This document shows, one piece after another, positions 1 to 12,100 of a stretch of DNA of 64,000 nucleotides. This DNA comes from Stylophora pistillata (lineage: Eukaryota): contig NW_019218191.1 in the NCBI RefSeq assembly GCF_002571385.2, positions 169,379 to 233,378 on the forward strand, in the 5' to 3' direction. How positions within the stretch are numbered: the stretch's first letter is position 1; every line of letters begins with the position of its first letter. Under the pieces are notes generated by a model. That model did not search any database. It saw only the letters and a program-made list of their open reading frames with translations, and was not told the origin of the DNA. Made by a program: the position numbers and the translations under genes.

Positions 1-174
1 TCCTCCATTTAAGAAGATCATTCTCTGTAATGCTAAATGAACAGTAAGAGCTGCGTCGTCAACACTGCGCCCCAGTGCTCTACCGAGGACATCAAGGTCT
101 CTCTGTAAGTGCTGCCATAAGAATTGCCCCTCACACTGAGACGGGCATGGAGGTGTGATCAGCTGTGCGATTTC
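1..174 (-). CDS. RNF213: RNF213-like exon (runs off window)
   Basis: AG acceptor at 175-176; EIAQLITPP...FLWQHLQRDLDVLGRALGRSVDD. Confidence 0.85.
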
Positions 175-3100
175 CTTTGAAGAGAATTTAGAGATCTGTT
201 AATATAGTCAAGAGTGAGAGTAAAAATTTTGAAAAAGATTTTTGAGCTTTCCAAGATTACCAACATAGTATCATTGATGTCTAATCCATCAGAATCAGCG
301 ACTTAACGAGTGACACAAAGGCGGATTTTAACAGCATGAAACTTTCATAAATAAGACTGCCCATAATCGTGAAAAAAAATTCTGACAAATTTAATGATAC
401 GTGAAGCGTAGCATTCTGTCTTTTTATCTAAACACCTACAGCCTGAATAAAAATTAATTACTCTTGAAGCTTCAGTCAATGACAAAGTTCCTCTTTTGCT
501 TACTCGCTGACCGCGAGCAAATAATCACCTGGGGATATTTGGAGGCTCCCATGACCATAGCCGATTGCATTAAAGTCCTCAAGAGACTGCACACTACCGG
601 TGGCATGTCTCTCTGCGGCTCAGCGTGAGTAGGTCTAGAACCGGGTACTCCGAGGGCGTGACCAGTCTTCGTCCTGTCTTTCCTGGAAGTTCATTATTTT
701 GAGATAGATATCAGTAAAATGAGCAATGACGCTTCCTTTTTTACCTGCTGTAAACGTTTTAGGGTGATTCTGGACTCAAACTAAACCAGAATGTAGTGCA
801 GTAACATAGAGTACTTAAGGGATGACAAAGACAATATTTTCAAGTTACCTGTTAGAAACTTTAGATACTTCTGAAAACGTGAGCTGCTCCCCTCCTAAGA
901 CCCTTCCACATCCAGGACAAGTGCTCTTCTCCATTGGTTTCGAGCACTATTCCAGAACATACAAAATACACGTAAGCAAATACAGCAACAAGGGTTGACT
1001 GTGCGTTACATATATTAGAATGATTCATGACAACGACAGTAAAGAAAAATTCGATGTTTCGATAAAATCAGTTTAAAACCGTCCTAAACCAAAAGAGCTT
1101 CCCCTCTCATAAACAAACACACCCTTCCATCCCTCCTTGGTTTTTGTCGTCATGACACAGTGACTTAGTACACGGTTCATGAGCCGGCACACCGTGTAAA
1201 AACTTACCTCCCCAATAAAATACGGATGTCTGCAGTTGAGATTGCTGCACTCTGACAAGGAAAGAAAAAAATTACGTAGTGTAGGATTCATGTACGTCAG
1301 GCAACGGAATGGGAGACTTACTTGTTTTCTTCTTGCTCTATGCAGTCGTTTTTTATAATAATTGTATAGATACTTTGAAACAAAGTAACATCTTACAAAA
1401 ACATTTCAGAAAAAAAAAAACAACAACAACAACACTTACCATACCACTCTCCGACCCAACCTGTTCCCTTCATAGTTTCAGCTATGACATTAATGCACTC
1501 GAGATAGTTATCCTCAGGCATTGTTGGTAGAAACGAATTCTGTACAGAACCAATAATTATATGGGAGGTATGTTTTAATGCAGACACTCACATCAAAGTG
1601 GCTGTGAACCACTGAACTTGCAAAATAAATCATAAAGGGACGAGCAAATCGAACTTTGTATTTTAAAACCTTTTTTTAATGAAAGTTATCTTTTATCCCT
1701 GTGGTCTACTCCCAGAAAGCACGTTTCCAGTTTCACATTCTATCTGCATACTTAGCGCATTGGATTGCGCTTATCCTTTAAAAAGAACTGTCGAGGGACT
1801 GGCCTTAAGTGGCAGCATGTTTCGAGATACATTGTCTTTCTTTTTCTTTTCTAATTACTATCTTCTTCATAACATATGTTTTTCTCTTTGCGCTCCGAAC
1901 GTCACCAGTTTTTGGACAGTAATCACCATTCGAGAAACAAATTATCAAAGAGCAGCGTTTGTCTTTTCTTCACCTACTTTTGAGAACTTTCTGGGTTTTA
2001 GTCATTCTAGGGTTAAAATTTTGACCAATTTTCAGCTATCAGTTGAGCCCCACACGAGATCTTAACTCACGAAAGCCTAATACGCTAGTCGGCGGGGCCT
2101 ACCAAAAGGTTAACAGAAATGGAAGAAACGAGTGATTGAGTGATGGTTGGAAGGACGAATTTGGGCCATTACAACAACTTAACAAGTTGGAAATTCCTTT
2201 CAGCCATTCTCCGAGTTAAGAAGGAACACAACATCGAGAACACATCCTCCTTTCCAATTCTAATCTTAAATATTGAACATGGAAGCTAAAATAAGTCAAC
2301 CAGAAATTGACCAAAGGTTAGGAGGTTAAATTTTCTGGAGAACAAAAATTCTCTTTATTATCGTGTATTATGGTTATTTCGCCGTTTATGAACATGTACA
2401 TACGTTCATGGTCGATGGATCCGACATAAGGGCGAAGAGAGGTTGAGCCAAGGATCCTGAACCAACGCACTGTAAGGCTACCGCTGTGTGGATCACAATT
2501 TCAGCCAAGGTCTGCTCCTGTGGGCTTTTACCATTGTAGATTTGAAGTTCCCAGAGATGTCCTCCTTGACGGTTCGCAAGAAGTTCTTTGGCGAAAGGTT
2601 GGGCCTGCATTCGAGTCAGCGAAATTCAATTTTAAAAAATTTAATAGCCATGTTCTCACAACATACATGCATTTTTCTTTTTTTAATTTGTCTCACCGTT
2701 TCAGAAAAGTGTCCTCCATTTGTTATAAAATCATCAAGCTTTTTCCTCACCTGAAAGGTAAAAATAAACCAACAAATACTGGTCTTCTCTGAATGCAGCA
2801 CAGGGCTTGAAATTACAGCCGATTAACTAAGAATGTCCGGTCAAAATTAGGCAGCATTGAGATTGATCCTCACGTACAGGTCAAGAAATGCTTTAAAAAT
2901 CTTCTTGTTTTATATTTAAACATATTTGAACAGCGTGTCGTGGGGAGGGGGGGGGCACTATCACAGCGAAAAGACGTAATCGATGTTTGTATGGCCAAAA
3001 GTGAGTTCTGTTCGGGGAAAATTAGGTTTGACCGGACAATTTGTTATGAACTACTTAAATTAGAAGTGTTTTGGAACTGCGAAAATAAGGAATGTTCTGG

Positions 3101-6100
3101 AATTGTTTGGGCCTGTTAGATTATCTTCAAATCCTTATGCGAGTCTTGTGAGCCTTGGTTGATTATTTGCTTGCCAGAAAACACATTTATTGTTAACTTT
3201 TAAATAATATGTCCTTGACCGTTGTGAGAGAGCTTCATTCTCGTACGATAATCGTCATCGCTAATCTTGTTTAGGTGCGTCCTTGACCTGGCTTAGAAGC
3301 CCCAACGGGAGATTTTGTTTAGGTTTTTGTTCTCGGAGATTGGTTCACTTCGAATGTCTTATGAGATTGTTTTGGTTAGCATTCTAAAACTATGCTGACT
3401 GTACCAAGGTCAGCGGTCCCGTAAACCAAAACAAGATTACCGATCGGGACTATGTACTTTGAGCTGACTCAGTAGAATGGAAAGAGAGTCTCAGGGAGTA
3501 AAATAGGGTTCCTAAACAGAATCCTGGTGCCTCTCATTTGCGCGTGGTGCTCAAGTTAGTTTACCCTAACAGTCCAAACAATTAAACCGGCACCAAGTGA
3601 GACATTATTTGAAGCCCTAAAGCAAATAAAAAAGTATCGAACTAGTGCGCGTTAAAGGCGGACATGTATTCCAAGAAAAGTTACTGCAAAAAGAAGGAGG
3701 CCCACGCGTCACGTGTGCTTACCTCCTGGGACAAATTCTGTGTCTGAACTGGTGAAACATTTTCCATTGTTAGTTCACGGTACATCGCGAGGAGAAGAGG
3801 TACATTGTTGTAGACAACTTGTGATCCAGCTTCCTGCAGAAACATTGTTACACGCTGTAACTGTCTGACTAGTACCTTTTCCAACGCTTCAATTGTGAGA
3901 TGTCCGATGGTTGACGGGGCCGTCATTGATTAAAATGTATTCAAACTTCGCTAAACGAAATATCTTTAGTCTGTTAAACTACTTGTGGTTCAGTTACTGA
4001 GTCGTTGTAAAGGCAAACCAAACTAATTATCCAAGCTCAATCAAGTCGATAACATTGAGTTTCGTTTATCAGAAATCCTTCTCTGATGGAATTAATTTAA
4101 AGGGGTACTAAGGAATTATACCATATTTGTGATAATACTGAATAACGCACGCCGTAGACATTGCAGCTTAACCTATTCACTGATTAAGAAGATGAACGTG
4201 GGTGAACACGAACCGTAATGACAGAGACAATGTCTTGGATGTTCCCACTGATGACAGTTTTGGCCAATCCCTCACGGACAGCACGGTAATGGTCTCCATG
4301 AACAAGAAACCTGTCTAGGATCACATCCTCCTACAGATCGAAGATCAAAAATTATTACTAAGCAACATGTTTGATCTAAGGTCAAATGTAAAGAGTTAGC
4401 CGGCCTACACGTTAAAGAGAGACATTCTATAGTGGGTCAGACGAAAGACAGAGGAAGCGACAAATCGGAACTTTCAAAATATTTTTTTGGCTCCTTGAGA
4501 TCTCGACCTTTGCGCTTTAGAAACATTTGCGGTGATTGTTAAGTGATATTCACGAGGTTTGAGTAGGTTTTGCTCCTAAGTGAGTAAATGGAAAGTCAGT
4601 TCACTTAGTGAATGGTTTGGCTTGCGAAAAGATTGCCCGTAGCACAGTAAGTAAACCACCTGACTACCAAGTAAGATCTTGCCACGGTTTGAATTATCCT
4701 AGGATTCAGGTCTTCTTTTCCTGTCACACACTTAAGACGTATGCATAGCACTTTCTCTTAAGATTCAGTTCTCACACATTTCCTGAAATCCATTCAATAA
4801 TCATCAGTCGAGTAAAGCAATGATCCCCGCAGGTGAGCTACTAGATAAGCAATTACAGAAAAAAAGGTTGAAAAAGTGCGGCTTCGTATTAGTAAGTTGA
4901 TAGTAGCGCCCAAATGGTAGCTGTGAGACACGGGTTTGAATCCGGTCGAACCCTGAATTTTTTCAAGCTTCTTTTCTGCAATTGCTTAAATTGCAGATCA
5001 CGTGTAAGGATTGTTGCTTTACTTCAATTTCATCCGCAGGTCAAATGAAATTAATTTCATTGCAATTTTAATCATTTGTCGTCTACCTGCTGTCGAGTCT
5101 CTGAGGGTAGAATCCATTCTAGTTCCTTAAATTGACCCAAAGTCCGAACACAGTCCAAGCCATACCGCCTGACAAGCTGTTTAAGTAGGTAGAGCTGCGG
5201 TGTGGAACTCGACATTTCCAAGCAAAGCTTCCTTGCAGACACTAATAACTTTGTTACTTCTCTTTTAACTTTTTCGTCTCTGTAGCTACTGTCTCCCTCA
5301 ATAAATAACTTGTAAAGGAGCTCTACAACCAATGATAAGACGAAACGTCCCTTAGCAACTCCCTCCAGAGAACGAGCGCTCATCTCAGCAGAATCCTCGT
5401 CAATGTGCGTAAGAGCTGTGACTGTCCCTTCGCAATTCTCTGTGGCATGTTTGAGTTTTAATGTCAACCTCCTGTCTGCAAACTTGGCTTGATACTGGCT
5501 CACAAATAAGTCCTGAATAGAAAAAACCATGTAAATGTGAAGAAAACTCAGATTTTATGGCGGAATGCATTCAATATAGAGAAAAGTGACATACGTAACA
5601 TTCGCGAATGTAAGGTAAATTTGATTTCAGTTGATTTACTTTTTATCATGTTACTAACCAGCCGGGAGGTCATTATTAGGAAAAACTTTGCCCGAGGTCT
5701 TCGTCGAACATTTTTATTTGCGTAATGAAGGTGATTTACAAGGCTTCCCAGCAAACTTTGCAATTTTTTTTTATAACTACCTACCACGATCAATGAGAGA
5801 GTACGTAAGAAAAAGGAGCATGTACACATTTGAATGACCAACAGCACTGGTTTTGCGAACAAACTCGAGTTAAATGGATCACGACGATTGTTCTCTTCAA
5901 AAGCAGTCAATGATCTTGCGGAATGTTTTATTCACTTACATCCACGATTTATCTACGAAGATTTTTCTCTGTTCAGTTTTAAATGGCAAGGAAATTCACC
6001 GTAAGTATATTGAAATGTATGTTTTGAAGTTCTTTAAGTCTGTCCGTTCATTTAGTACAATGAAGTGAAAAAAATCTTCTATTTCTTCTCGCGAAAAACC

Positions 6101-9100
6101 GAAGTCAAGTGAGACCCTTTCTCTATACGGAAAGGGATTTAATCCGGCTCTTAGCAATTGATTCACTTCGGTTACTGTTGTTACACTGTGGAAGATATCA
6201 GTTCACGTACCTCCCTGCACTGAACATACAAAAGGGAGACTTCCTTGATATGCGAAGGTTCTCGTTTTAAGTTCTTAGCCCCTTTCAAGAAGTCTCCTAA
6301 ATGATTTTTCACCAGCTCTGTTCTATTTAAGAAAAAATAAGAGACAATCAAGTTTATACTTCCTCCTTTATGAAGTGATAAGAGGTATCACAAGTACAAT
6401 CAATTTGGCTTTGTAAAGAGTACAACAAAGGTCTAGGCTTTGTAAAGAGGACAACGAAGGTCTAGGTTCTGTAATCAACTGAGAAATATATTAAAAGAAG
6501 ATAGGATTTATCCCTAATGTTAGTTACCTTGAACGTAATAACAACTGGAGAAGAAATGAACACACCACAGGAGTGGGGTCAATAGCATGATCAGGGAATG
6601 GAGAGAAATCCTTTGTCTGAGATGATTGATGACCGACGACATAATGCATAAGTAGAGTGATAGCTTCCTGTTCAAGGTCCTTTGACACCGAGTCACCAAA
6701 ACAGAATATTGACACCAGCTCCATGAAAAAGGCATTACATCGGCGGCGTAACTCGGTTGCCGCCTTTTCATTGGTCCTGTAGTCACAAAGAAACCATGAA
6801 GCAATGTAAAAAAATAACAGAATTGATGTGCAGTCCTTTGGGTCCATAACGACGTATTTAAATTTTACTCTTCCTCTGAGACCGAAGAAGACTGAGATTC
6901 TATGCGATACGTACCAACTGAACCGTGTACTACAGAATAAAAAATAATGAACAATAGTTATGTCTGCCCCTCTAGGCGTATTTACGACCCTAAACCTGTC
7001 ATGGTTGCGCTATTTTACCTCTGCCTAACGTCTTCACTGTAGTTAACTAAGAATTTTTCCAAGGCCTGCAGTGATCTCAGCGAAGAAAAGTCTGTTTCAT
7101 CCCCCAAAGCCTTTAACGGAAAGAAGACATGTTGTTGAGTTTCAATTTACGACTTAGCATTTCCATTTTTTACTTTCAAATTAAGAGTAAATTCGTGCAA
7201 AAATCAAACATTGAATGGCAAAGTTAAAAAACTAAAATTCGCTGTTCTCTTGCATACAAGTAGCCTTTAGAAAGTATACAATTGCTGTGCACATTTTTTC
7301 CTTAAAAAAATTATTTGCTTCCGAAAAAACCAAAACGTTTTGTATTCAGTCCTGGGATCGATTTGGCGACACCGAACAGGATTAAAATAGGTCATGATTC
7401 ACTCGACTCGCGTATCAGAAAAACTGCGCTAGAAAAAGCTATCACAGTTCCAAGTTGTTGTACAACTTGTCATAGTCTAAACACCGTGATTTCATAAAGA
7501 TTAGATTAAATCCAGTATTCAAGAGAAGTCAAAAGTTTATGGCTCTCCCGTGTTGGGTAAAACGGTAGGCGAAAAACAACGATAATTTTTAGCATGTGCC
7601 TTTCCTCAGAATTTCGTAAGATTACGAATGATAATGCTAGAATTGATGATCTTTCAGAATACGTAAAGTTTAGTTTGGGGAAATGAATTTGGAATTTTTT
7701 ACAATTTTTGGAAAATCGTGAAGAAAGACAAAAAACTCAAGCCATTCTGATATGTACATGTGACCATCAAGATATTGATATAACAAAAATTAACACGACT
7801 CCGATGCATATAGCAAAGTAAATACAATAACCTTAACTCAAATATTATATTCTTAGCTGTTCAGATGAGTCCAGAGATTCAGTCCGTTTTGTTGTTTTCT
7901 CCATTCTGCGGTCTCCGTAAGTTTGACATCTACACCGTCGCGTTACGTCGCGGCTCATTATCTCGGGTATTGTCATTCTTAATCTTACGAAATTCTAAAC
8001 AAAGGCACAGGCTCAAAATAGTCGTTATTTTTCGTCTACCGTTTTACAGAGCACGGGGAGAGCCATAACTTCTTTGCTTCCCTTGAATACTCAGACAAAT
8101 CTAATGTTTATGAAATCATGGTGTTTAGACCATGGTAAGTTATTCAACAAATTGAAACTATGACGGCTTTTTCTAGCGAAGCAGTTTTGACAAGCGAGTC
8201 AAGAGAATCATGACTCATTTCCACCCTGTTTACTCGTGTTTGGGATCGCCAAATTGTGCTTAAGTTGAAAACGGCTTCCATCGTTTTTCTCGTGAATTAA
8301 GAGACATTTCAAGGAAAAAAACTGTATAGCATTCATCTACTTACCAAAGGCTATCTATATGCAAAAGACGAGTGAATTTGATTTTTTCAGCTTTGCCGAA
8401 GATTTGCGATTTTGTTTCATTCTTGCACGGATCTGCTCTTAAAAGAAAAACTGTTTACTGGTATAGTTACCTAACTAACTATACGCACCTTCCACAAAAT
8501 AGTTACATTCTCGGAGTTGGCTTTTTCATCTTCCTCAGCGAACAAAGTCACGTGCTCTATAAAGAGTCTGACGGCTCCGATTCGCTGCCACATGGACCTG
8601 ATCCACACGAGAACAACATGATCGCTTTTAGCATCTAGTTAATACTTTAAAAGAAAACCAATATCGGAATTTCTCTTTAACGTATGGATCCCCTTATAAC
8701 AAGGTACTAAAAATATTGTATTAATAAGATAGAGGAAAGCTTTTTTTTTTCGGGAACCAAACAAAAAATTTTCAAGGCCCTGAGAACTTATTCTCATGAG
8801 ACATCTCCCATATCTGGAATCATTTCCCGCTACATCCGCAGCCTCGGCACCAATAACGCATTCCCAAGATAATTTTAAACGATCTCAATATAAAAGAGAC
8901 CTTGAAAATCTTGAGGTCAATTATTTACGATTTAAATGACCTTTAAGGGTTGTGCATGCATTGACTGACAATACATGCACGGTTGACCGACTGACTCATT
9001 TTTCAGACAAATCCTCAGGTATAGGACACTGTGAGCGAGTGAGCGATTATACAAAACCCTATTAATGGCTTGACGGATTATCAACAGCAAACTACGTCAG

Positions 9101-12100
9101 CACCTTTAGTCGACTTCTGCTCTTGCCTCGGTCAAACCCAAGCTTTAGCGGACAAATTGGATGTTACGTTACCTGCAGCGATCAAGCAGTACTGTCGATC
9201 TCTCTCCATAGTTTGAACATTTCTCCGTGACAGGTCCGAACCTCTCTTTCCTTATCATGTCTTCCACCGCTGGTCTCATAGACAAAACTCTGTCACACCA
9301 AATTTGTCTTGTGTCCGGAAAAAGCAACATTTCTCGTGATGGCTCGATCGCTTCAAGACAAATTTGCAATGCTACCACATCCAAAAGCTGTAAAATGATA
9401 GTAGTAATAATAATAATAGCAATAATAATAATAATAATAATAATGATAATAATAATAACAATAGTAGTAACAATGATAATAATGATAATGACAACAACAA
9501 TACAGTACAGTCAATCAATCTTTAATTTACAGACGAGGCACACTAACAAGTGCAACTCAGATTAAGTTTAACTTATTATGTAGCAAAGGAAGGGACAAAA
9601 TCAGAAAGACCCAAGGTGTAGCAAGGGGCGAGAAGGGCTCGTGGTGGGCATGACATCATTGCAGCGGTAACAATCATCTGAAGTAAGAAAACAACCTAGC
9701 ATGCCAAGGACCTCTAATACACTAGTTTTCAAACCACTCCCATACCCGAAAAACCCTACCAATTACCCGATTGCTATCGTAGAAAATACTTTGACGAAAG
9801 GTATGACAAAGACTCAAAAGATATTAAGTTCACCGTTTCTCGGGCATACTTGAAATTTTCAAGGAAAAATGTTAATGGTTAAATTTTAATTATGTACTAT
9901 TATCAACCGTTTTGTTCATGCACTGAATTACAAAACTCGAGTAACTCACCACTTCTGGCTCACTTCCTTGAAGTACTTCACGTAGTCGCGGGATAAGACT
10001 TGGATTCATTTTGACAATTGTATCAAAATACTTTAAACGGTGTTGAACTCTACTGTGTGCGACATGAACGAGAGCTATGTCAATCGACTCGTTATCATCT
10101 TCATCATCCAGGATACCAAGTTCTCTCGCAGACGAAAGAATCGCTTCGTACACAAGCTGAAAAACAACATGAACAAAAAAAAGAAAATGTAGCCTTAACC
10201 GCGTTTCAGTTGCACTGAGGTAAGTCTCAGTTACCCCGGAATAAAATAACTGTTTTCTCCAACTAGTTTATCTATGGATCGATTTCCGTCTTGTATAAAA
10301 CATATTTGATATATCTGCATCTTTAATGACCACATCAAGTTTTCCAGACAACAACTTATACAGGGTATTCAACACCTTCAACCTTTTTCAGGTTGGGGTC
10401 AGAGTCCATTTAATTTAAAAAGTAAACTTTCAACGCGAAACAGTCCTTAAAATAAATCTCAAACACAAATAGATTCGTAGATTTATTCGAACTGTTTTTG
10501 TCCTAGTCGCACCCATCGCTCAAGTTAATCACGCAATATGTTTCCAGCCGGGGGAGGAGCGAGTCAAATGACTATCCTAGAGTACATTCTAAGGGGTAGT
10601 TTTAGAGTTCAATTAGTGGGAGTGTGGCTATTAATGTTATGAAAAGTATCGTGAAACCTCGTATTCATTATCGTTTGAAGGTTTGTGCACCATGTGTACG
10701 AAATCCATCAGGTATTGCGAAGCAACGGAGTCTTCATGGCGTAATTCCTTGAAGAGAAGTCCCAGTTGCGAATTGTCGATCATATCACGTAATGCGACCA
10801 ACAGGGTGGTACTAGAACCGGGTAAAGCTGAGGACAAAGCAGTAATTTAAAAAACTAATGGTTAGCCACGGAACTAGATTTCATCGCTTTAGCACTTCAG
10901 AGTTACTTCTTAGTTTTTAACACAATACTGATCTTTCTTCGTAAGCGATAGAAAACGCTAGGAAAAGGCGATTAGCCTTAAGTTAGTATTACTCTTGACA
11001 CTTTTTTATTAAGACTTAGAATGAACAAAATGTCAGAAACATAGTAGACAAGTTACAATTTTAAAAAAGGACACGCCGAGCAAATTTGAAAAAAAGCCAA
11101 GAATAGGGCAAAATGAAAGAAAATCGAAGACAAGTTCATTACCTGAGGTGCTAGATGCCTCTTTAACCATGTTCTCCACGCGTTCCTTTATAAGGAACGA
11201 AAATGGAAACCGGCTACAGAACTTGTGACCCTCAGCTCCAGAGCCAATGACTTGAACACGTTCCCGCACAGAATTAGTAGCAGGTGATATCATTTCGCTG
11301 TAACTCAGTTCTGAAAAGGTAGGGTCAGCTAAAATCTTCAACCACAGCTTTGAAACCCAACTATTGTCACTCTTTACCAAGTCCAAGTTCATGTCCCTGT
11401 CTGCAAATGCGATGATCTCAGCCAAAATGGGCACCACCACTGAATACATTCTTTGCAAAAGGGCCTTTCTAAAGGTGCCCCACTCTTGCACCCCTGTTCC
11501 AGAGAGAGCTTCTGAGTGAAGCCATATCTGTGCATCGTATGCAGTAGCCTCTTTTTCCATTAAGAGGTAGTATGTCCTTTGTACTAATACGCTTGCAAAT
11601 GACTCCTCATCTTTACGAATAAACGGCAAAGATTAAACAGAGAAAAAAGTTACCGAAAAGATTTTACTTCGAAACTACGTGATGCTCTATTCCGCATCAT
11701 CTCTTAATTTATTCTAAATGAAGCTATTATCCTTTCTCCATTACCTTGAAACATAAGTGCGGTTAAAAAAAGAAAACCGCCGAATTCATATCGCATTCGG
11801 ACAAAAAAAATTATTTGCTGCTCCTTCAAAAGAATAATGCACTTACCCAAACTCAGATAAACTCAAAGACGACAGCTCCGATTCGATATACACACATGAA
11901 TCCGAATTTGTTGGGAAACTGTATAAATATTCACATATATATCCCTCTAACAAATCTGAATAAGTAACACTTGAAAAATACGTATAGAAATTAGAGGCTC
12001 TATTAAATCTTTTGAAAAACCATACTTAATAAAGATTTCATTTTCTTGAAATGCTATCAGTATATCATTGGCAAGTTCGGTAGAAATATATTGTGCTCAC

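What the first reader, a model, noticed from the sequence alone, without database searches (positions are those of the whole stretch)
849..946. RZ finger keeps the catalytic Cys but the conserved GGxxH His is Leu
Spliced sequence reads HPYFIGE-C-SKPMEKST-CPGC-GRVLGGEQ-L. The RZ consensus (human GECGRPMEQSICIDCHAPIGGIDH, recalled) ends in a His proposed as the general base for ubiquitin discharge from the GEC cysteine. The codon here is CTC (881-883), one change from CAC. Inference: an enzyme that loads ubiquitin but discharges it poorly, or that has a different acceptor preference.
Basis: partly seen in the sequence, partly recalled or inferred. Interest (0 to 1): 0.72.

Follow-up and report, generated by a model that had tools for sequence, protein, structure and literature searches.

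The report
Coral RNF213 catalytic histidine/leucine polymorphism
An expressed coral relative of the human immune ubiquitin ligase RNF213 has leucine in place of a catalytic histidine in this assembly, while other samples of the species read histidine there, so it is likely a segregating variant that would weaken the enzyme's last step rather than a new kind of enzyme.

Summary
Observation confirmed. Exon 946-849 (minus strand) of a coral RNF213-like gene keeps the catalytic Cys and has CTC (Leu) 21 residues later, the register of human His4537. It is not an assembly error and not fixed. RNA reads give Leu in 25 of 34 (run X21) and 1 of 10 (X24); the contigs of two other runs give CAC (His), one across the same intron. 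The gene is spliced, expressed and open over 57 modelled exons (3690 aa, 76% to a Pocillopora protein). It has no RING, so the RZ finger is the only ligase site seen. All 18 sequences of the coral subfamily keep His. Among 147 wider RZ hits 120 have His, 20 Tyr, 7 other and none Leu. Best reading: a likely hypomorphic allele, tolerated beside His-bearing copies. Allele versus near-identical duplicate is unresolved. Side result: Tyr recurs at this position (at least 6 changes on the tree); my searches found no report of it.

The parts
849..946 (-). Exon with the second half of the RZ finger: catalytic Cys, CxxC, GG and the His/Leu position
   Evidence: Splice sites; RNA joints; PF20173 E 1.5e-5
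881..883 (-). Codon CTC (Leu) at the general-base position; CAC (His) in other reads and contigs
   Evidence: row 882: His in 9 of 34 (X21), 9 of 10 (X24), and the one covering contig of X4 and of X9; codon effect
944..946 (-). Cys codon equivalent to the catalytic C4516 (human) / C4462 (mouse)
   Evidence: Alignment; role
908..919 (-). CxxC, third and fourth zinc ligands by alignment
1208..1251 (-). Exon with the first zinc knuckle, C-x4-C-x-H (Cys 1249-1247, Cys 1234-1232, His 1228-1226); closest coral relatives have C-x2-C
   Evidence: joint 946/1208 in RNA
1440..1539 (-). Exon with the helix ahead of the RZ finger (predicted ubiquitin-binding helix in RNF213/ZNFX1)
   Evidence: tblastn; joint 1539/2404 in RNA; role; helix 14-29 in the model of relative P0004
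529..682 (-). Exon following the RZ finger; codon 567-565 is Gln in the window but His in all four runs
1..56578 (-). RNF213-like gene, 57 modelled exons, 3690 aa without stop, running off the window's low end; about 556 further residues of P0173, including the C-terminal domain, lie outside
   Evidence: 76% identity to P0173 over 3674 aligned residues
27462..32850 (-). Exons with the two catalytic AAA+ units; both Walker A and both Walker B motifs present
6777..7018 (-). 242-base intron at the place where RING-bearing homologs carry the RING; no RING in any of its three minus-strand frames

Best explanation
This is an expressed, RING-less coral RNF213-like gene whose general-base position reads Leu in some samples and His in others, most likely as two alleles of one locus, and the Leu form is predicted to accept ubiquitin on its cysteine but pass it on slowly. 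Shown: the Leu codon, its register, splicing, expression, both bases in reads, an open frame with Walker motifs, no RING, and His in all close relatives. Inferred from mammalian enzymes: ATP-gated transfer of ubiquitin from the E2 to the RZ Cys should still occur; without the His the incoming nucleophile is not deprotonated, so transfer would drop, most for hydroxyl acceptors such as lipid A or sugars and less for lysine. Inferred from read patterns: His-bearing copies in the same species buffer the loss, so the allele persists as a tolerated hypomorph.
For:: Leu in 25 of 34 reads of X21 and 1 of 10 of X24 (by subtraction from the listed His reads), two studies apart from the assembly. His in X4's contig 546-950, which spans the intron with 5 other letters in 405, and in X9's RNA contig with 1 other letter in this exon; these look like the same locus. 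X4 single-contig depth is 110-180 with one bubble at 57 + 40, as for one diploid locus, while the 565G state has depth 367, as for several further copies. X24 has a third form (9 reads) with a different loop that keeps His. Subfamily: 18 of 18 His (13 proteins, 5 loci; 10 distinct loop types). Leu in 0 of 147 wider hits. No general decay: 10 mismatches at 85 conserved columns (alignment-start gaps set aside) against 9, 13, 10, 10 in four relatives. Mechanism.
Against: Reads could not be phased: linkage of 882 with 106, 565, 619, 631 is by frequency only. Leu:His ratios of 25:9 and 1:9 differ between runs (Fisher p 5e-4) and neither is 1:1, which fits paralogs with different expression, or pooled samples, as well as alleles. 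X4 and X9 are contigs, which drop variants. The X24 Leu evidence is one read. Only about 2% and 6% of the two raw runs were read. The Leu form is the main transcript in X21, which is not what a merely tolerated defect needs. 27 of 147 RZ hits lack the His, so some RZ fingers may work without it. No activity was measured, and mouse His-to-Ala lowered rather than abolished activity.
Confidence: 0.55

Rival explanations
1. Leu marks a separate, very recent duplicate of the gene (fixed, or present in some colonies only) that is losing or changing its ligase activity while a His copy stays active.
For: Both forms occur in both raw runs at skewed, opposite ratios. Further copies exist in the species (third form in X24; depth 367 at 565G in X4). 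Porites harrisoni has two annotated members of one cluster, both on a 570,697-base contig.
Against: X4's DNA contig and X9's RNA contig match the window at 98.8% across intron and exon yet carry His; X4 depth over the introns fits one diploid locus; X9 shares X21's major states at 565, 2435, 2512, 2553, 2706 but has His. Only one RZ exon in the window.
Confidence: 0.2
2. The Leu form is a selected, balanced variant: it shifts the ligase from hydroxyl acceptors (lipid A, glycans) to lysine, or acts as a low-activity subunit that damps coat formation on resident microbes.
For: HOIL-1 H510A loses Ser and sugar transfer and gains Lys transfer. Leu is seen in the assembly and two further studies, is the main transcript in X21, and by frequency sits on more than one background (58, 619, 631 differ). 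The rest of the gene is under constraint. RNF213 is reported induced in cnidarian immune cells and differs between coral colour morphs.
Against: Leu is absent from 147 wider hits and 18 subfamily sequences; the recurrent substitute is Tyr. No allele frequencies or diversity data. ZNFX1 H1881N lost its transthiolating activity altogether.
Confidence: 0.12
3. The change is near neutral because this RZ finger does not need the His.
For: 27 of 147 hits keep the catalytic Cys and CxxC without the His; at least 8 changes forced on a 51-row tree; mouse His-to-Ala kept some activity; the loop after this position has also drifted in this locus, in His and Leu forms alike.
Against: 18 of 18 subfamily sequences, down to about 57% identity over the C-terminal region, keep His; substitutes are mostly Tyr, and never Arg, Gln, Asn, Pro or Leu, which single-base drift would also give.
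Confidence: 0.1
4. The CTC is an assembly error and the true codon is CAC.
For: All four runs hold His reads or contigs; the window has other states seen in none of them (565, 2512).
Against: 25 of 34 raw reads in X21 and 1 of 10 in X24 agree with the window's base. A T/A change is not a known editing type, and a DNA-like run carries the other base.
Confidence: 0.02

Closest known systems
Mammalian RNF213 / mysterin (PDB 9g08, 8s24, 9jw1, 7oik, 6tax)
   Same: Stalk, AAA+ core with two Walker A/B pairs, E3 module, RZ finger with GEC cysteine, CxxC and GG in the same register.
   Different: No RING; first zinc knuckle C-x4-C-x-H rather than C-x3-H; general-base His is Leu in this allele; the C-terminal E2-docking domain lies outside the window and was not seen.
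Coral 'rnf213-alpha(-like)' proteins: Pocillopora verrucosa XP_066021905.1 and XP_058970756.1, Stylophora pistillata XP_022800358.1, Desmophyllum pertusum KAJ7339378.1
   Same: 68-76% identity, one clade with support 100 (quick tree), no RING in P0173 or P0003, second Cys in the first knuckle.
   Different: All keep the His; their knuckle is C-x2-C, the window has two extra residues.
ZNFX1 RZ finger (C1860/H1881)
   Same: Same Cys/His dyad by the papers.
   Different: SF1 helicase with a separate RING-like E2-binding domain; the window's gene has the AAA+ architecture.
Engineered general-base mutants: mouse RNF213 H4483A, ZNFX1 H1881N, HOIL-1 H510A
   Same: Catalytic Cys kept, base removed; the models for how the Leu form would behave.
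   Different: Laboratory mutants; here the change is natural and expressed. HOIL-1 is an RBR ligase with another fold, so it is an analogy only.
Natural His-less RZ fingers found here, e.g. Saccoglossus kowalevskii XP_006816196 and Megalops atlanticus KAG7491182.1 (both Tyr)
   Same: Cys and CxxC kept, His replaced.
   Different: Tyr, not Leu; these two carry a RING; whether they are fixed or active is unknown.

Membership tests
RNF213/mysterin-like proteins | Collinear homology over stalk, AAA+ core and E3 module | tested here: met
   3684 of 3711 residues of P0173 (8-3718) covered by tblastn; 76% identity of the model; 11 long homologs map in order
RNF213/mysterin-like proteins | Walker A and B motifs in two AAA+ units | tested here: met
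   All four motifs present, as in P0173
RNF213/mysterin-like proteins | RING finger (present in mammals, dispensable for LPS and auto-ubiquitylation) | tested here: not met
   Gap against four RING-bearing homologs; none in the intron; also absent in P0173 and P0003
RNF213/mysterin-like proteins | C-terminal E2-docking domain | not testable with these tools
   Lies beyond the window's end; no genome is held
RZ finger (Pfam PF20173) | Profile match at the curated cut-off | tested here: inconclusive
   Half-domain exon scores 25 of 27 bits, E 1.5e-5; whole fingers of relatives pass at 47-55 bits; the spliced finger was not scanned
RZ finger (Pfam PF20173) | Third and fourth zinc ligands, CxxC | tested here: met
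RZ finger (Pfam PF20173) | First two zinc ligands, C-x3-H | tested here: inconclusive
   Window has C-x4-C-x-H; the His is 7 before the catalytic Cys as in human, but three of four close relatives have Tyr there and keep the second Cys; which residue binds zinc was not determined
RZ finger (Pfam PF20173) | Fold of the domain | tested here: inconclusive
   Model of relative P0004 only: helix plus short strands, pLDDT 72.5; no PDB match at E <= 0.001
Active RZ-type transthiolating E3 (Cys/His dyad) | Catalytic Cys in GEC | tested here: met
   Codon 946-944
Active RZ-type transthiolating E3 (Cys/His dyad) | His 21 residues after the Cys | tested here: not met
   Leu in the window's allele; met by the CAC form in all four runs. 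The Leu form is therefore not filed as a canonical dyad enzyme
Active RZ-type transthiolating E3 (Cys/His dyad) | Measured transthiolation and discharge | not testable with these tools
   Needs biochemistry

The most novel reading that the evidence does not exclude
A reef coral carries a common, expressed, balanced polymorphism at the catalytic base of a RING-less RNF213, which switches it between tagging microbial lipids and sugars and tagging lysines only, and so tunes how colonies treat intracellular microbes; the recurrent His-to-Tyr RZ fingers across eukaryotic RNF213 relatives are a wider, unreported class of such acceptor switches.
Probability: 0.12. Interest if true: 0.75.

Novelty: new variant of a known kind. 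Interest (0 to 1): 0.42.

Why it matters
The role of the RZ histidine rests on a few laboratory mutants, and whether it sets hydroxyl versus lysine specificity in RNF213 is open. A natural His/Leu pair in a nearly identical, RING-less protein is a ready test of that, and a genotypable marker at an immune gene of a coral. The survey also shows the residue called highly conserved is replaced in 27 of 147 clusters, mostly by Tyr. If the allele is just a tolerated defect in a multi-copy family, the interest is modest.

Tried and rejected
No whole genome is held, so paralogs could not be counted. An exact DNA pattern around the codon found 0 matches in metagenome contigs; a protein-based scan gave 6 loci, none of this species' exon, all His. 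Alternative splicing that would supply a His: not seen among the listed joints; the donor at 879 picked by my scoring script was an artefact and was replaced by the RNA-supported joint. Pseudogene: rejected, frame open and expressed, though junctions were chosen to avoid stops, so the model shows compatibility, not proof; RNA confirms only junctions within 1-2800. General relaxed selection: no excess at conserved columns. RNA editing: wrong type of change. Link between RING presence and His loss: none by a crude pattern (4 of 15 against 7 of 35, p 0.71; the pattern missed at least two RINGs that Pfam finds). A compensating His near the Cys: none in the exon. Fold search of a relative's model: only weak zinc-ribbon rows. 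The careful tree did not finish; the quick tree was used. Paper search was swamped by general terms and is uninformative. Scan notes for this genome and by sequence were empty.

Full report
Observation. Positions 946-849 are one minus-strand exon between an AG and a GT. It starts with the Cys that follows the GE of the upstream exon 1251-1208, holds a CxxC, and reads GGEQL; the Leu codon is CTC at 883-881. The spacing from Cys to Leu is 21. In the human chain retrieved from the PDB the spacing from the GEC Cys to the His of GGIDH is also 21, matching C4516 and H4537 (PMC11549300, passages). The exon alone matches Pfam PF20173 at E 1.5e-5, 25 bits against a cut-off of 27. The register is therefore not in doubt.

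The gene. Runs holding this stretch are labelled as one organism or as coral metagenomes, and the closest named proteins are from Pocillopora, Stylophora and Desmophyllum, so the source is taken to be a stony coral. One RNF213-like gene fills the window on the minus strand. tblastn covers 3684 of 3711 residues of the Pocillopora protein P0173. A model of 57 exons from 56578 to 1 gives 3690 residues with no stop and 76% identity over 3674 aligned positions, with both Walker A and both Walker B motifs. Junctions were chosen to avoid stops, and RNA confirms only those inside 1-2800, so this shows that an intact frame is possible and likely. About 556 residues of P0173, with the E2-docking end, lie beyond the window. 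There is no RING: the model has a gap against four RING-bearing homologs, the 242-base intron there encodes none, and P0173 and P0003 have none. The RZ finger is the only ligase site seen. Earlier scan notes list RING-less relatives in fungi and protists (unchecked), so that feature is probably not new.

Is the Leu real? I laid 4 of the 24 listed runs on 1-2800. Reads follow the exons, on the strand expected for a minus-strand transcript in most stranded libraries, and confirm the joints 946/1208 and 681/848. At 882 the His base is in 9 of 34 reads of X21 and 9 of 10 of X24; by subtraction 25 and 1 agree with the window. The one covering contig of X4 and of X9 has His. So CTC is not an assembly error, and it is not fixed. 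X4's contig spans 546-950, intron included, with 5 other letters in 405; X9's contig has 1 other letter in this exon. X4 and X9 share the state 565A with X21's major form, while a 565G state has depth 367 in X4 against 110-180 for single contigs and 57 + 40 at a bubble. I read 565A as the window's locus and 565G as further copies. X24 also has 9 reads of a third form with a different loop that keeps His. This favours two alleles at one locus in a multi-copy family. Against it: nothing is phased, the ratios 25:9 and 1:9 differ (p 5e-4) and could reflect paralogs or pooled samples, contigs drop variants, and only about 2% and 6% of the raw runs were read. Two further His-to-Gln states of the window (565, 2512) occur in none of the four runs; they may be private or errors.

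The column in relatives. In the coral subfamily all 18 sequences that cover the position have His: 13 proteins and 5 loci, falling into 10 distinct loop types (the tree places four of them with the window at support 100, the rest are assigned by likeness). A profile search of 1.84 billion cluster representatives gave 1469 hits; of the best 150, 147 cover the column with the catalytic Cys and CxxC intact: 120 His, 20 Tyr, 2 Glu, 2 Ser, 1 Ala, 1 Phe, 1 Asp, 0 Leu (three rows dropped as not covering). On a quick tree of the 51 rows long enough, non-His states need 10 changes, 8 forced by strongly supported branches, and Tyr alone needs 7, 6 forced. Arg is one transition from His as Tyr is, yet never appears; 6 of 6 one way has p 0.016, a rough figure that counts every change as a gain. 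Tyr thus looks like a preferred substitute, and Leu is not part of that class. Named Tyr cases are from Saccoglossus and Megalops. The first knuckle also varies: 16 of 147 have a second Cys and no His. The window shows no general decay, with 10 mismatches at 85 conserved columns against 9-13 in four relatives.

How it likely works. In mouse RNF213 Cys4462 takes ubiquitin from the E2, and His4483Ala gave 'lower (<10x)' autoubiquitination, read by the authors as a general base (PMC12075652, passages and section 11; 10.1101/2021.05.10.443411, passages). ZNFX1 H1881N lost its transthiolating activity (10.1101/2025.09.05.674436, passages; see also 10.1101/2025.10.14.682297, passages). HOIL-1 H510A keeps E2 discharge, loses serine and sugar transfer and gains lysine transfer (10.1101/2024.11.29.626046, passages). 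By inference the Leu form loads ubiquitin and discharges slowly, with hydroxyl acceptors such as lipid A hit hardest. With no RING to fall back on, it would be a hypomorph covered by His-bearing copies. None of this was measured. An immune setting is plausible: RNF213 is listed as induced in activated cnidarian immune cells (PMC13319465, one passage) and as differing between coral colour morphs (PMC13104285, passages).

Comparison and verdict. It is an RNF213-like protein of a RING-less coral subfamily already annotated in databases. The Leu form fails the Cys/His dyad test, so it is not filed as a canonical RZ ligase, though it would work like the engineered base mutants. Searches for a natural His-less RZ finger (listings, plus the passages named above) showed none; subscription journals and supplements, notably Supplementary Fig. 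11a of PMC12075652, were not seen. A model of a relative's finger (pLDDT 72.5) found no PDB match at E <= 0.001 and adds nothing. Confidence: tolerated hypomorphic allele 0.55, recent duplicate 0.2, selected switch 0.12, neutral 0.1, error 0.02. Interest 0.42: real, testable and apparently unreported, but one polymorphic codon in a multi-copy family.

Noticed in passing
P0034, P0040, P0046, P0055, P0057, P0058, P0071, P0097, P0135, P0164 and ten more hits: Tyr replaces the RZ general-base His in 20 of 147 clusters, with at least 6 forced changes among the 10 Tyr rows on the tree; Arg, Gln, Asn never appear. Possibly a functional alternative dyad.
   Followed up: partly
window 1226-1249 (-): First zinc knuckle is C-x4-C-x-H; close coral relatives have C-x2-C with His or Tyr after it; 16 of 147 wider hits have a second Cys and no His, suggesting a four-Cys RZ type.
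   Followed up: partly
window 6777-7018 (-): No RING at the place where homologs carry it; shared with Pocillopora P0173 and Desmophyllum P0003.
   Followed up: yes
window 565, 2512, 6561: Gln codons at 565 and 2512 where all four runs read His, and Cys at 6561 where 95% of distant homologs have Arg (not covered by reads): private changes of this haplotype or assembly errors.
   Followed up: partly
run X24 against window 685-887: A third expressed form (9 reads; 1 in X21) with a different loop after the GG that keeps His: a paralog or divergent haplotype.
   Followed up: partly
window about 36200-41100: Broken, GC-richer reading frames inside the intron 42237-35437 that look like a DIRS-type retrotransposon (label recalled from motifs; six frames gave no Pfam family at 1e-3).
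   Followed up: partly
window 1592-1625: Loose read ends on both sides and reads on both strands in X21 and X24, inside an intron: probably a short repeat shared with another transcript.
   Followed up: no
window about 17850-18900: Repetitive, stop-poor intronic stretch giving overlapping long frames on both strands; probably a tandem repeat.
   Followed up: no
window 49787-50212 and 61019-61447: Frames resembling the ends of non-LTR retroelement proteins (recalled resemblance; the second had no Pfam hit).
   Followed up: no
P0182 (Saccoglossus, 4321 aa): Tyr-type RNF213-like model ends in EGF, F5/8 type C and C-type lectin domains; may be a fused gene prediction.
   Followed up: no
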